Virus record (IMG/VR): IMGVR_UViG_2531839664_000027
Direction: 5' to 3' (one strand)
Source: a virus
Lineage: Duplodnaviria > Heunggongvirae > Uroviricota > Caudoviricetes
DNA length: 64,000 nt
Below are positions 18,001 through 21,000 of this stretch, in pieces. A program made the position numbers. The stretch's first letter is position 1. Every line of letters begins with the position of its first letter.

Positions 18001-21000
18001 TGAGATTACGCACCAGATGGTAACGTTCAAAGGGTATGAGATAAATCATCATGGTATAGCGGCGTATTGCTCCCATCTTCCTGATGACGTTGACATTGAT
18101 GAAATGGAAAGGGAGATGAAGCAATGACCATCTACATCACTGAGCTAATAACAGGCCTGCTGGTAATCGCAGGCCTTTTTATTTGGGGGAGAGTAAATCG
18201 TGGCTGAGTTAATTTTCTCTGCATTGAGGATTCTCGGTGCTATGTGGATGGTGGCGACATTCATTGTTGTTGTCAGCAGTTTTGTCCGGTTGGTAGGCGA
18301 AGGTAAAGACCTGGTGGGTGTGCTTTTCGGTAGCATTCTCCTGTGGGTGATTATCGGTGTTGCGCCTGTTGCTGTAGCAAAAATGGCGTGGCGTTTTGTT
18401 AGTTGAGGTGACGATGAAGCAAATATCACTTCAATAAATCGCTTTTAAGGCATCACAATCGCTCTGTGGTGAGGTAAGCACGTGCAAGGCATGTCGATAG
18501 GCAGCGAGAATGAAAAATGCGTCAGAATGCGTTTGAGGAGGTTTTAAGAAATGAGTACGATAGCTGAGCTTGTCAGGGCTAATTTTCGTGAAGAGTTGGT
18601 GCGTTGGTATCGGTATCGTTCATCGTCCAGTTTGCCGCTTGATGAGTTGTATGAGCACTCACCTGCCGCACGGCGCTATCCGCGTGACCGTGTTCTTCGA
18701 CGGTTGTTCAGACTCAATAATGAGTTTCAGCGCAACAGAATTATCCGGAGTCTGGATTTAAAGTGAAGGAGTGAGCATGAGCGAGCAAATATTCAGAGAG
18801 ATTAAGCCACGGTTTTATCGCAAGGTAAGGGTGGTTTATCAGGACGAAAACAAGACATGTGCATACGCCATTCATAATGGTCGGTGGTCAGTGTTCGACA
18901 CCAAAAACTTCGAGAAGAACTTCGAGAGGATTAAGGGTGATGAGGAAACTAACATTTGAACTAAGAAGCCCCATCCATCAGCAGAACGCCATTCAAGCTA
19001 TCCAGCAAATTCTTCCAGACCCAACCAAACCAATCGTAGTAACCATTCAGGAACGCAACCGCAGCATTCGGCAAAATGCACGCCTTCACGCGATGCTATC
19101 TGAAATAAGTAAGAAGGCTACATATCACGGAAAAGCAAGAAATATTGAGTTTTGGAAGGGGTTATTCGTTTCTGGTTGGCAGATTGCAACCAACCAGCAC
19201 CCTGAGATTATATCAGGGTTAGAAGGTGAGCTAATAAACATCAGAGAGAGTACGGCGACTCTATCTGTAAAAAAAATATCCGAAATAATGGACTACATAG
19301 AAGCATATTGTGCCATGAACTCAATTCATCTTAGCGAATGGAGGAATTATGATTGAGGTTTGGGTAGATATCGAAGGGATTCCATTTTATCAGGTTAGCA
19401 ATAAAGGAAATTTCAGGTCTATTACGAGGGAAGTTACAGTAACATCAACCAGACAGAGGCCATATAAGAAAATAATTAATGGCACTAGTGTAAAACCATT
19501 CAAGTGCAAGTCGACAGGATATCTTCAAATAAAGGTATACGGTAAGAAATACAGCGCCCACAGGATAGTTGCGAAAGCATTCTGTACAGGGTTCTGTGAT
19601 GGCTTGGTAGTTAATCACAAAAATGGGCGAAGAGATGACAATAGGGCTGATAACCTTGAATGGGTATCACATTCTGAAAACTCAAAACACGGATATAAAC
19701 AAAATGGAAGAATACCTATATCGCTAGGTAAATTTAGTGGTGACCATCCTGCCAGTAAAGCTGTTATTTCTACTGACATGAAAACTGGGGAGGAGGTTTA
19801 TTATGAAGCAGCTATGGATGCTGTCAGAGAAGGATTTGATAGTTCGTCAATTAGTCGTTGCTGTAATGGCGAAAGCTCATATCACAAAGGAAGATTCTGG
19901 CGATTTGCAAATGAAAAAATGAAAGCGCGATGGGGAGATCGGGCTGCATGACTATCAAATCAAATACGCCAGCACACAACAAGGACTGCTGGCAAACGCC
20001 GCTTTGGCTTTTTGATGCACTGGATATTGAGTTTGGATTCTGGCTGGATTCGGCAGCGAGCGACAAAAATGCTCTGTGTGCTCACTGGCTAACTGAGGCC
20101 GACGACGCGCTCAATTCTGAGTGGGTAAGCCACGGTGCAATCTGGAATAACCCACCGTACAGCAATATCAGGCCGTGGGTGGAAAAAGCCGCTGAGCAGT
20201 GCATACAACAGCGACAGACGGTAGTTATGCTTGTGCCAGAGGATATGTCAGTCGGATGGTTCAGCAAGGCTCTGGAGAGTGTTGACGAAGTTCGCATTAT
20301 CACTGATGGACGGATTAATTTTATCGAACCATCGACGGGGCTGGAGAAGAAGGGAAACAGTAAAGGCTCCATGCTGCTGATTTGGCGACCGTTCATCAGT
20401 CCTCGACGGATGTTTACTACCGTATCCAAAGCGGCATTGATGGCGATCGGGCAGGGCGTCAGGAGGGCGGCATGAGGCGACAGCGACGAAGTATCACCGA
20501 CATCATCTGCGAAAACTGCAAATACCTTCCAACGAAACGCTCCAGAAATAAACGCAAGCCAATCCCAAAAGAATCTGACGTAAAAACCTTCAATTACACG
20601 GCTCACCTGTGGGATATCCGGTGGCTAAGACATCGTGCGAGGAATACAAGGGGATTGACGCGATGATTTATCCGGGGCTATATTCCTCACACGCCAGCAA
20701 AATCTGGCGTCGGGATTGGCGTCCCGGATGAAAAAGGCGACAACAGACGTGCCAGCGTCTTTTTTATTGTCGTTTGCACAGTCACATCTCAATGGTGGGC
20801 TGTGTGGGGGCGGAGCAATCCGCGCCGGTTCCTTTTTCCCGGTTACGCCAACCCTGCACAGTTCACCACCAAGCGATTGGCGTCGCAGGTGGTGATGATT
20901 CACAAAGAAAAAGGATCATCTTATGGCCACCAAAATCGCAGTTGAAACTCTCTCCCCGATCACCCATAACCAGATTCCTGTTATTACCACCGAACTTTTG

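What the first reader, a model, noticed from the sequence alone, without database searches (positions are those of the whole stretch)
19342..19951. HNH homing-endonuclease gene inserted into the 3' end of ninB, capturing the NinB C-terminal codons
NinB here ends ...LSEWRNYD, whereas the 200-aa HNH ORF that follows ends ...EKMKARWGDRAA, and KARWGDRAA is the authentic NinB C-terminus as in lambda. A ~580-bp HNH cassette has therefore landed between the NinB Trp codon and its last 9 codons, leaving a C-terminally altered NinB. It is a clean footprint of homing-endonuclease invasion in the nin region.
Basis: partly seen in the sequence, partly recalled or inferred. Interest (0 to 1): 0.5.

Follow-up and report, generated by a model that had tools for sequence, protein, structure and literature searches.

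The report
Homing endonuclease gene fused to ninB tail
A selfish-looking DNA-cutting enzyme gene sits in the end of the phage recombination gene ninB and finishes with nine codons left over from an older ninB copy; this is an ordinary kind of mobile element with an unusually readable recombination scar.

Summary
NinB (18940-19356) ends ...SEWRNYD*. The overlapping 200-aa ORF (19349-19951) is a full-length I-HmuI-like HNH endonuclease. Its last 9 codons plus stop (19922-19951) are, base for base, the 3' end of lambda-type ninB.

No 580-bp cassette dropped into an intact ninB. The ninB here is a chimera: codons 1-43 are lambda-type, and codons 44-138 belong to a different NinB subfamily. That subfamily, at 58% identity or more, always carries a short ...x-Y-D/E* end and an overlapping HNH gene (Salmonella, Yersinia, Pantoea, an Acinetobacter-labelled metagenome bin and unassigned metagenome contigs).

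The RNYD end is encoded by the endonuclease's own ribosome-binding site and ATG, so this event did not create it. The closest HNH relatives end seven residues after the domain (...ERMAA*), so KARWGDR is a derived capture.

Best reading: about 853 bp (foreign ninB body plus HNH) replaced codons 44-137 of a resident lambda-type ninB. The left crossover was homologous; the right joint is in-frame and non-homologous. This fits homing with one-sided homology.

Relatives captured NinB C-terminal codons repeatedly (13 of 54 tails). No empty site exists. Cleavage is untested.

The parts
18940..19356 (+). ninB (138 aa), chimeric and C-terminally short; ends ...SEWRNYD*
   Evidence: ORF list and translation. 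Pfam NinB at 2.5e-40. The body has dN/dS 0.02 against SEN22, so it is under purifying selection.
18940..19068 (+). Lambda-type 5' third of ninB (codons 1-43); left homology arm and crossover zone
   Evidence: Identical to phage 434 across alignment columns 91-120 (ninB nt about 88-117), and about 93% identical over nt 1-129 to an E. coli lambda-type ninB. Identity collapses right after ...CGCAACCGCAGC. Other E. coli/Salmonella copies carry different N-terminal segments joined to the same body near the same point (P0002, P0006/L044).
19069..19341 (+). Foreign ninB body (codons 44-134) of the 'QNARLHAMLS...EFWKGLFVSGWQIAT' NinB subfamily
   Evidence: Only 33-56% nt identity to lambda-type ninB, but 66-96% to SEN22 and 43-96% to the Yersinia and metagenome homologs. 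In the phage collection this segment is found together with the HNH gene wherever the two result lists could be compared (65 and 69 records).
19342..19356 (+). NinB codons R-N-Y-D-stop, which are also the endonuclease's translation start region (SD GGAGG at 19340-19344, ATG at 19349)
   Evidence: Sequence. The same TGGAGGnnTTATGA junction occurs in SEN22 and in L008/L045, where the HNH is of a different type. Yersinia has a variant, GATGGAGGTAGATATGAATGA.
19349..19921 (+). Core of the I-HmuI-like HNH endonuclease gene (NUMOD4, HNH_3 and a C-terminal NUMOD-like helix-turn-helix), ending ...HKGRFWRFANEKM
   Evidence: Pfam. The clade profile matches I-HmuI (PDB 1U3E) residues 2-171 of 174 at E=8e-25. 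Catalytic-motif residues H90, D97, N98, N102 and N111 are invariant in 24 homologs. dN/dS is 0-0.26 among E. coli copies.
19922..19951 (+). Captured lambda-type ninB codons K138-A146 plus stop, now the C-terminus of the HNH ORF
   Evidence: Identical to the phage 434 ninB 3' end, and differing at 2 bases from an E. coli lambda-type ninB. The nearest HNH relatives lack these 21 nt (ADERMAA*, ANEKAAA*). The tail is polymorphic among E. coli copies in the same way as lambda-type ninB tails.
19943..19951 (+). Junction 'linker' GCTGCATGA (Ala-Ala-stop overlapping the ATG of the next gene)
   Evidence: GCNGCATGA recurs at 20467 (dam/ninE junction) and at 23622. In several phages dam is absent exactly between the first two copies.
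19948..20475 (+). dam (phage N6-adenine methyltransferase), translationally coupled to the HNH ORF; right-hand resident DNA
   Evidence: Pfam Dam at 8.8e-65. 97-99% identical to dam downstream of HNH-less lambda-type ninB in about 1500 E. coli genomes.

Best explanation
Window 19349-19951 is a free-standing HNH homing-endonuclease gene of the I-HmuI type. Its long-term home is the 3' end of ninB/orf genes. It travels as a two-gene module: a ninB with a short end (...x-Y-D/E-stop, encoded by the endonuclease's own Shine-Dalgarno and ATG), followed by the endonuclease.

In the enterobacterial lineage represented here, this module entered a phage that carried a lambda-type ninB. The left crossover was homologous and lay in the conserved first 129 nt of ninB. 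About 853 bp of donor DNA (foreign ninB codons 44-138 plus the HNH core, about 19069-19921) replaced resident codons 44-137. The right end was joined without homology, in frame, directly in front of resident codon K138.

The nine leftover resident codons, the stop and the ATGA overlap now terminate the endonuclease ORF. They also keep translational coupling to the next gene (dam here, ninE in some relatives).

The most likely driver is endonuclease cleavage or nicking of HNH-less ninB, followed by break repair from the HNH-bearing phage with homology on one side only. This is intronless homing with co-conversion of the neighbouring ninB sequence, and the diverged ninB body would give immunity to self-cleavage.

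Shown here:
- the anatomy and both mosaic boundaries;
- that the tail is derived;
- that both genes are under purifying selection;
- that relatives repeatedly carry NinB C-terminal pieces on their ends.

Inferred, not shown:
- endonuclease activity and its target;
- that cleavage, rather than ordinary recombination, drove the replacement.
For: - Identity of the gene: Pfam gives NUMOD4 and HNH_3. The clade profile hits I-HmuI 1U3E over its full length at E=8e-25. Catalytic residues are invariant. dN/dS is 0-0.26 within E. coli, and dN is 0.14 with saturated dS against SEN22.
- Mosaic boundaries: lambda-type identity holds in ninB nt 1-129, collapses after CGCAACCGCAGC, and resumes exactly at 19921/19922.
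- Old module: every NinB at 58% identity or more to the window's has the short Y-D/E end. Every context examined has an overlapping HNH gene: SEN22, Yersinia kristensenii, Pantoea, an Acinetobacter-labelled bin and JGI contigs. Of 73 loci surveyed, 45 have an HNH downstream, and the short ends occur only in those. The 28 HNH-less loci have longer ends such as KKWSARWGA* and SERWAA*.
- Derived tail: relatives at 65-77% identity end 7 aa after WRF.
- Recurrent capture: 13 of 54 HNH tails of 9 aa or more match NinB C-terminal regions at shuffle p<=0.01, at different offsets. L155 and L153 show a ninB 3' end on both sides of the HNH.
- HEG-like population behaviour: 62 of 5426 E. coli genomes carry the module with dam, against about 1500 with HNH-less ninB-dam. 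A second, AP2-type HNH occupies the same ninB site (L008/L045). Another sits in the dam 5' end and takes dam's first 9 codons (L004), sometimes in tandem with this one (L034). Decayed copies exist: L023 is split by a 1.2-kb insertion, L072 is truncated, and P0124/P0125/P0127 are frameshifted.
- Model precedent: intronless homing and co-conversion by free-standing phage HEGs (PMC2988022 and PMC2790892, seen as titles and abstracts). Illegitimate break repair with limited exon homology in T4 is recalled from my own knowledge (Parker, Belisle and Belfort 1999) and was not checked here.
Against: - There is no biochemical or genetic evidence that this protein cuts ninB or anything else.
- No HNH-less copy of the same ninB allele was found, so a before/after pair does not exist.
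- The linkage to Orf-family genes is very conserved (about 29 of 35 IMG/VR loci). That could equally mean a working partnership.
- The right joint cannot be derived from a single microhomology event. ATGG is shared, but using it would leave one extra G and a frameshift, so an extra step or selection for the in-frame product must be assumed.
- In several phages the module's outer limits coincide with gene boundaries and with the GCNGCATGA linker. That is what ordinary lambdoid module shuffling produces without any endonuclease.
Confidence: 0.6

Rival explanations
1. Functional partner rather than parasite. The endonuclease is a working nuclease subunit of the NinB/Orf recombination module. It would be a split version of the Orf-HNH fusion proteins of Gram-positive phages, and the gene pair is kept together by selection.
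For: - HNH relatives down to about 39% identity lie directly downstream of Orf-family genes of several subfamilies (NinB, YbcN-like) in about 29 of 35 IMG/VR loci.
- There is an 8-nt overlap with ninB and an ATGA overlap with dam.
- Both genes are under purifying selection.
- NinB-HNH fusions are documented (PMC2034487, PMC4118853). One of them, Gp16 of phage PhiNM1, is a RecA-dependent nuclease (PMC12817073).
Against: - The protein is a full-length homolog of a classical homing endonuclease, I-HmuI. The fused Gram-positive HNH is a different, zinc-finger subclass.
- Most NinB genes lack it.
- Two unrelated HNH architectures occupy the same spot, a third sits next door in dam, and they occur in tandem.
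- Disrupted, truncated and frameshifted copies exist.
- Some relatives sit after DUF1367 or an unrelated gene while still carrying a NinB-like tail (L113, L117).
Confidence: 0.15
2. Ordinary lambdoid mosaicism. The ninB-HNH module was shuffled in by phage or host recombination at short conserved sequences, with no role for the endonuclease. The tail is simply where one such exchange happened to end.
For: - In L022, L024, L031, L033, L039 and L043, similarity to the window runs exactly from the ninB start (18937/18940) to the HNH stop (19951).
- dam is present or absent between two GCNGCATGA linkers.
- The tail is polymorphic like lambda-type ninB tails, so it does recombine with HNH-less phages.
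Against: - It does not explain why the right joint has no usable homology and is in frame.
- It does not explain why relatives repeatedly end in NinB C-terminal pieces of different lengths, or the mirror-image capture of dam's first codons by another HNH.
- It does not explain why the diverged ninB body is always co-inherited with the HNH.
Confidence: 0.12
3. A roughly 580-bp HNH cassette inserted cleanly between the Trp137 and Lys138 codons of an otherwise intact ninB of the same allele.
For: Read as protein, the junction looks codon-exact...SEW | RNYD* upstream and ...EKM | KARWGDRAA* downstream, against lambda ...LEW|KARWGDRAA*.
Against: - The upstream ninB body is a different subfamily from the tail.
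- The W-R-x-Y-D/E end with an HNH gene exists in lineages that never had this tail, and its TGG is part of the SD GGAGG.
- The nearest HNH relatives have 7-aa tails.
- No empty site was found in 50,697 phage records or 5,426 E. coli genomes.
- Gapless alignment to HNH-less subfamily members puts the truncation about 13 residues from the end.
Confidence: 0.08
4. Group I intron. The insert is a self-splicing intron carrying the HNH ORF, as for I-HmuI in SPO1, and splicing restores a full-length NinB ...SEW-KARWGDRAA.
For: I-HmuI itself is intron-encoded (my own knowledge). The apparent codon-exact junction is what an intron would give.
Against: - No Rfam family, including group I introns, matches 18800-20200 on either strand at E<=1.
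- The ORF fills 573 of the 580 inserted bases, leaving no room for a ribozyme core.
- The putative 5' exon ends in G, not the near-universal U.
- The same gene sits after intact or differently ended ninB genes elsewhere (L116, L133).
Confidence: 0.02

Closest known systems
I-HmuI (Bacillus phage SPO1; PDB 1U3E), HNH homing endonuclease
   Same: It is a full-length sequence homolog. The clade profile aligns to residues 2-171 of 174 at E=8e-25. The domain order is the same: N-terminal NUMOD4-type DNA-binding region, HNH motif, C-terminal helix-turn-helix ending ...HKGY.FRY.
   Different: I-HmuI is encoded inside a group I intron of a DNA polymerase gene and is a nicking enzyme (my own knowledge). 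The gene here is free-standing, no intron was detected, it sits at ninB, and it carries 14 residues after the WRF motif (I-HmuI has only 3 after its FRY), nine of them ninB-derived.
Free-standing phage homing endonucleases and 'intronless homing' (T4 MobE, SegB and others; PMC2988022, PMC2790892)
   Same: - An endonuclease gene sits between or overlapping conserved genes.
- Its distribution among related phages is sporadic.
- Flanking diverged host-gene sequence is co-inherited (the ninB body here).
   Different: - Activity and target are unknown here.
- The host is a temperate lambdoid phage rather than a T4-like phage.
- One junction is a non-homologous, in-frame fusion to leftover host-gene codons.
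Genes split or truncated by HEG insertion (for example nrdD split by a homing endonuclease in Felix O1-like phages, PMC4837284; Aeromonas phage Aeh1 nrdA split by mobE, recalled from my own knowledge)
   Same: The HEG lies inside a host coding region, and the host gene still appears functional.
   Different: Here only the last 9-13 codons are displaced. They are not expressed as a separate NinB piece but are appended to the endonuclease.
Orf/NinB-HNH fusion proteins of Gram-positive phages (DUF968; Gp16 of PhiNM1; PMC4118853, PMC2034487, PMC12817073)
   Same: An Orf/NinB-like DNA-binding module is physically linked to an HNH nuclease.
   Different: Those are single polypeptides with a zinc-finger HNH of another subclass and a documented RecA-dependent nuclease role. 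Here there are two separate ORFs, and the HNH is of the I-HmuI homing type.
Lambdoid nin-region mosaicism with short conserved junction sequences (my own knowledge of the HK620/HK97-era comparative papers; not re-read here)
   Same: GCNGCATGA (Ala-Ala-stop/ATG) recurs at gene junctions. Whole genes such as dam come and go between copies of it.
   Different: The two joints that define this finding lie inside ninB, not at a gene boundary.

Membership tests
I-HmuI-like HNH endonucleases (NUMOD4 + HNH_3 + C-terminal NUMOD-like HTH) | HNH (beta-beta-alpha-metal) motif with a conserved catalytic His and Asn residues | tested here: met
   Pfam HNH_3 at 2.4e-11, above the cut-off. H90, D97, N98, N102 and N111 are invariant in 24 homologs. 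Aligned with the I-HmuI motif.
I-HmuI-like HNH endonucleases (NUMOD4 + HNH_3 + C-terminal NUMOD-like HTH) | N-terminal NUMOD4 region and C-terminal helix-turn-helix DNA-binding region in the same order as I-HmuI | tested here: met
   NUMOD4 at 1.4e-13, above the cut-off. I-HmuI_NUMOD-like scores 19.2 bits, below its 27-bit cut-off, but the clade profile aligns over I-HmuI residues 2-171 of 174.
I-HmuI-like HNH endonucleases (NUMOD4 + HNH_3 + C-terminal NUMOD-like HTH) | Site-specific nicking or cleavage of DNA | not testable with these tools
   Needs purified protein and ninB substrates.
Free-standing homing endonuclease gene (intronless homing) | Sporadic presence/absence among closely related genomes at one locus | tested here: met
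   62 E. coli genomes carry the module with dam, against about 1500 with HNH-less ninB-dam. Of the surveyed NinB loci, 45 have an HNH and 28 do not.
Free-standing homing endonuclease gene (intronless homing) | Co-conversion: flanking host-gene sequence is inherited with the HEG and differs from HEG-less alleles | tested here: met
   The foreign ninB body 19069-19341 was found together with the HNH gene wherever the result lists could be compared (65 and 69 phage records). Sharp mosaic boundaries.
Free-standing homing endonuclease gene (intronless homing) | A cognate HEG-less allele that is cleaved, and endonuclease-dependent unidirectional transfer | not testable with these tools
   HEG-less lambda-type ninB alleles exist and share both flanks. 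Cleavage and transfer need experiments.
Free-standing homing endonuclease gene (intronless homing) | An exact empty site of the same host-gene allele | tested here: not met
   None was found in the phage collection, in 5,426 E. coli genomes or in the sampled NinB homologs. This argues against a recent simple insertion, not against homing with co-conversion.
Intron-encoded homing endonuclease (group I intron) | A group I ribozyme core around the ORF | tested here: not met
   No Rfam match at E<=1 in 18800-20200. The ORF fills 573 of the 580 inserted bases.
NinB/Orf recombination mediator family (PF05772) - for the upstream gene | Match to the NinB profile over the RAGNYA core | tested here: met
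   PF05772 at 2.5e-40, covering residues 3-130. Core residues R41, Q45, N46 and W72 are invariant in the alignment.
NinB/Orf recombination mediator family (PF05772) - for the upstream gene | C-terminal helix alpha5 (lambda W137, W141) that contributes to DNA binding | tested here: not met
   NinB here stops 7 residues after the ...IHL strand, whereas lambda has 19 residues after the equivalent ...VKW and HNH-less subfamily members have 13-16. The role of alpha5 comes from PMC4118853.

The most novel reading that the evidence does not exclude
The ninB-HNH pair of Gram-negative lambdoid phages may be a split, two-protein counterpart of the Gram-positive Orf-HNH fusion nucleases (for example Gp16). 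The repeated in-frame transfer of NinB's C-terminal helix codons onto the endonuclease would then be functional. Under this idea the helix tethers the nuclease to the NinB dimer or to SSB-coated single-stranded DNA, so the 'scar' is really a domain swap that couples a nuclease to a recombination mediator.
Probability: 0.1. Interest if true: 0.7.

Novelty: new member of a known kind. Interest (0 to 1): 0.4.

Why it matters
The gene is already annotated in public records as an HNH or NUMOD4 endonuclease, and homing endonucleases at gene ends are familiar, so the element is not new in kind.

The value lies in how readable it is. Both recombination joints can be placed within a codon or two. The donor and recipient ninB types can be told apart. 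Relatives show the same process repeated with different outcomes:
- NinB tails from 0 to about 20 codons long on the endonuclease;
- a duplicated ninB end flanking the endonuclease;
- a second endonuclease family at the same site;
- a mirror-image capture of dam's first codons.

This makes the nin region of Stx and other lambdoid phages a tractable natural system for two questions. The first is how free-standing endonuclease genes enter new sites when homology exists on one side only. The second is how much they contribute to intragenic mosaic joints.

It also flags that NinB in these Stx phages lacks the C-terminal helix implicated in DNA binding.

Tried and rejected
- I looked for an empty site of the variant ninB allele in three ways: with its own DNA in the phage collection, with a synthetic 'variant ninB end + lambda tail + dam' query in 5,426 E. 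coli genomes, and among 206 NinB homologs. None was found.
- I took the 146-aa NinB homologs (P0012, P0020) for candidate intact alleles. The Pantoea locus (P0020/L012) shows they are the same arrangement with the stop lost, reading 32 nt into the HNH gene.
- The genome-contig scan with the NinB profile returned only two loci and added little.
- I tried to derive the right joint from a single microhomology (ATGG). It gives a +1 frame product, so I left the exact joining step open.
- I tested the group I intron idea with Rfam and found no match.
- dN/dS against SEN22, Yersinia, the Enterobacter phage and L009 could not be computed because synonymous sites are saturated. I used closer E. coli copies instead.
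- Literature searches for ninB + HNH and for homing endonuclease + lambdoid/nin region found no description of this capture. Curtis et al. 2014 only draw HNH boxes in a gene map.
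Full report
**What is in the window.** Three translationally coupled genes lie on the + strand.
- ninB runs 18940-19356 (138 aa, ...HLSEWRNYD*).
- A 200-aa ORF runs 19349-19951 and ends ...HKGRFWRFANEKMKARWGDRAA*.
- dam starts at the ATG at 19948, inside GCTGCATGA, and runs to 20475.

Pfam assigns NinB (2.5e-40) to the first gene. It assigns NUMOD4 (1.4e-13), HNH_3 (2.4e-11) and a sub-threshold I-HmuI NUMOD-like hit to the second, and Dam (8.8e-65) to the third. A profile of 24 homologs of the second protein matches the solved homing endonuclease I-HmuI (1U3E) over residues 2-171 of 174 at E=8e-25. I-HmuI stops three residues after the ...HKGY.FRY motif, so most of what follows ...WRF in the window protein is extra.

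Phage 434 NinB ends ...LALEWKARWGDRAA*. From G19921/A19922 through the stop, and on into dam, the window matches 434. An E. coli lambda-type ninB followed by ninC instead of dam matches the window only over that 30-nt island (2 base differences) and over ninB nt 1-129. The arrangement is 100% identical over 1201 bases in the 40 best phage records listed, including Stx2 phage 86, Lahn2, TL-2011a and many Stx2a-converting phages. It is also present in 62 complete E. coli genomes.

**The simple-insertion story fails.**
- A nucleotide alignment shows the window ninB is a chimera. Nucleotides 1-129 are lambda-type, and identical to 434 across alignment columns 91-120. After ...CGCAACCGCAGC, identity to lambda-type ninB drops to 33-56% for the rest of the gene.
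- The body belongs to a large NinB subfamily (...QNARLHAMLS...EFWKGLFVSGWQIAT...GLEGEFINIRESTA...) found in Yersinia, Pantoea, an Acinetobacter-labelled bin and metagenomes.
- Every member at 58% identity or more to the window protein ends in a short ...W/G-x-x-Y-D/E(N)*.
- Every genomic context I opened has an HNH gene overlapping that end by 8-32 nt: Salmonella phage SEN22, Y. kristensenii, Pantoea, three contigs carrying a NinB labelled Acinetobacter, and a JGI contig.
- In 73 NinB loci, 45 have an HNH downstream and 28 do not. The short Y-D/E ends occur only in the first class. HNH-less members end in longer tails such as ...KKWSARWGA* and ...HVSERWAA*.
- The short end is encoded by the endonuclease's own start region, TGGAGGnnTTATGA (SD GGAGG plus ATG).
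- No HNH-less copy of this ninB allele exists in 50,697 phage records or 5,426 E. coli genomes. All 60 listed E. coli hits to a synthetic empty-site query are split by exactly 580 bp.

**The tail is a derived capture.** The nearest relatives of the endonuclease (65-77% identity) end seven residues after WRF: ADERMAA*, ANEKAAA*, AYERAAA*. They include SEN22 and an Enterobacter phage in which the upstream gene is DUF1367 rather than ninB. The window has 21 extra bases (KARWGDR) between ...EKM and AA*, and these bases are lambda-type ninB. Among E. coli copies the tail is disproportionately polymorphic. For example, 3 of the 6 differences in L022 fall in the last 27 bases, and the variants resemble the one lambda-type tail compared here and, from memory, lambda's own (GAC AGG/GAT CGG, GCG AGA/GCG CGA). 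The tail therefore keeps recombining with HNH-less phages.

**Most likely history.** A donor module (short-ended ninB plus HNH) replaced resident lambda-type ninB codons 44-137. The left crossover lay in the conserved 5' third. The right joint is non-homologous and in frame, in front of K138. The foreign block is about 19069-19921, roughly 853 bp.

The same body is joined near the same point to at least three different N-terminal segments (the window, P0002, and P0006/L044). The module with its tail is found with dam or directly with ninE downstream. In the second case dam is missing exactly between two GCNGCATGA junction sequences. So the capture predates the spread of the module among E. coli phages, and the window does not show a fresh event.

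**Why I favour a homing endonuclease as the driver.**
- The protein is a full-length I-HmuI homolog with invariant catalytic residues. It is under purifying selection: dN/dS is 0-0.26 among E. coli copies, and dN is 0.14 with saturated dS against SEN22.
- Its distribution is sporadic, and the diverged ninB body is always co-inherited with it.
- Decayed copies exist. L023 is split by a 1.2-kb insertion, L072 is truncated, and three clusters are frameshifted.
- The locus is a hot spot. An unrelated HNH_3+AP2 endonuclease occupies the very same ninB site with the same junction and a NinB-like tail...AIEWASRFGDKQRAAA* (L008/L045).
- Another AP2-type HNH sits in the 5' end of dam. It borrows dam's first nine codons (MTIKSNTPA) and supplies a diverged replacement start for dam (L004). 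In L034 both endonucleases are in tandem.
- Across the clade, 13 of 54 tails of 9 aa or more match NinB C-terminal regions at shuffle p<=0.01, at different offsets. Examples are GTEHGVKWADEAKAA*, AHAFGTQRGVEWS... and SDASRLEIEWATRWGKS*.
- In L155 a ninB 3' end is present on both sides of the endonuclease. In L153 the upstream ninB and the tail come from different ninB types.

Variable, one-sided, often in-frame joints next to the endonuclease, with homologous co-conversion on the host-gene side, are what break repair with homology on only one side would produce. That mechanism was described for T4 intron homing with limited exon homology; I recall this from memory and did not check it here. 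Intronless homing and co-conversion are reviewed in PMC2988022 and shown for MobE in PMC2790892.

**Rivals.**
- The strongest rival is that the endonuclease is a working partner of NinB. Relatives down to about 39% identity sit directly after Orf-family genes in about 29 of 35 IMG/VR loci. Orf-HNH fusions exist in Gram-positive phages, and one is a RecA-dependent nuclease. Against this stand the homing-type architecture, the sporadic distribution, the co-occupancy by unrelated HNH genes, the decayed copies, and the relatives that sit after DUF1367 or an unrelated gene while still carrying a NinB-like tail (L113, L117).
- Ordinary mosaic recombination explains the outer boundaries at gene junctions. 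It does not explain the intragenic joints or the recurrent tails.
- A group I intron that would splice NinB back together is excluded as far as sequence can show. There is no Rfam hit, there is no room for a ribozyme, and the 5' exon ends in G.

**Consequence for NinB.** Compared with lambda Orf and with HNH-less members of its own subfamily, this NinB lacks the C-terminal helix. It has 7 residues after the last strand, against 19 in lambda and 13-16 in HNH-less subfamily members. In lambda Orf, W137A and W141F in that helix modestly reduce DNA binding (PMC4118853). The gene is nevertheless under strong purifying selection (dN/dS 0.02 against SEN22).

**Verdict.** This is a known kind of element, a free-standing HNH homing-endonuclease gene that is already annotated as such in public records. 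It carries a clear and apparently undescribed recombination scar, set in a locus that shows the same process repeatedly. Endonuclease activity, its target and any partnership with NinB remain untested.

Noticed in passing
window 16071-17087 (inside dnaB, 15468-17861): The replicative helicase DnaB carries a 339-aa intein with LAGLIDADG homing-endonuclease motifs. It is inserted in the Walker A loop between GMGK and T. It begins with Ala and ends ...THN, followed by Thr. The Yersinia homolog reads [15 protein letters not shown] without interruption. This is a second homing-type element in the same replication/nin region.
   Followed up: partly
L004 1534-2061 (E. coli VTB96933v) and L034 3476-4036: A different HNH_3 (AP2-type) endonuclease sits between an intact ninB and dam. 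It starts with dam's own first nine codons (MTIKSNTPA), and dam gets a diverged replacement start (MIKHKSETPKEV...). This is the mirror image of the ninB-tail capture. In L034 it lies in tandem directly after the window-type HNH.
   Followed up: partly
L008 3410-3961 and L045 (JGI 3300031084): An HNH_3+AP2 endonuclease, unrelated in its C-terminal half to the window protein, occupies exactly the same position. It follows NinB ...DDWRGYDN* with the same TGGAGGGGTTATGA junction and ends in a NinB-like tail, ...AIEWASRFGDKQRAAA*.
   Followed up: partly
L155 2-864 and L153 1115-2067: In L155, NinB ends ...AFGAEHDVKWGEAT* and the following HNH ends ...GTEHGVKWADEAKAA*, so a diverged duplicate of the ninB 3' end flanks the endonuclease. 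In L153, the upstream ninB (...AWMTENVEVAA*) and the HNH tail (...AHAFGTQRGVEWSPTSLGRAA*) come from different ninB types.
   Followed up: partly
L113 1887-2597 and L117 1923-2630 (IMG/VR): These HNH relatives carry clear NinB-like tails (...ADRHGVRWSEPNPYEVTA*, ...AERGVVWSDRARQEIVDDWESA*), although the upstream gene is DUF1367 (L113) or an unrelated 112-aa protein (L117). The ninB body has been replaced while the tail stayed with the endonuclease.
   Followed up: no
window 19943-19951, 20467-20475, 23622-23630: The junction sequence GCNGCATGA (Ala-Ala-stop overlapping the next ATG) recurs at nin-region gene boundaries. In L022, L024, L033, L039 and L044 the dam gene is missing exactly between the first two copies (in L031 and L043 similarity resumes a few bases later).
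   Followed up: partly
L023 3049-4246 (IMG/VR 2713896798_000010); same as phage LC616041: The window-type HNH gene is interrupted at window position about 19488 by a 1.2-kb insertion, possibly an insertion sequence. Clusters P0124, P0125 and P0127 are frameshifted copies, and L072 (Mixta) is truncated to 130 aa. These are signs of endonuclease decay.
   Followed up: no
window 20923-21288 and 21554-22228: Two tandem paralogous ORFs share an N-terminal ...PVITT.LLA.LY....IRQN......F..GKHFFKV... domain and a ...[27 protein letters not shown]... segment (antirepressor-like). The first copy is short (121 aa) and lacks the C-terminal half of the second (224 aa).
   Followed up: no
L110, L114, L115, L121, L122, L125, L138 (IMG/VR; organisms not identified — Pseudomonas is suggested only by the source labels of related protein clusters P0172/P0176): NinB genes in these contigs end ...DNWGGRY* or ...DVWGGRY*, again SD GGAGG plus a start codon read in the ninB frame. 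They are followed by HNH genes; in L110, L114 and L115 these end ...PEQWEAAA*/...PEQWEQAA*. The same module therefore exists well beyond the E. coli/Salmonella lineages sampled.
   Followed up: no
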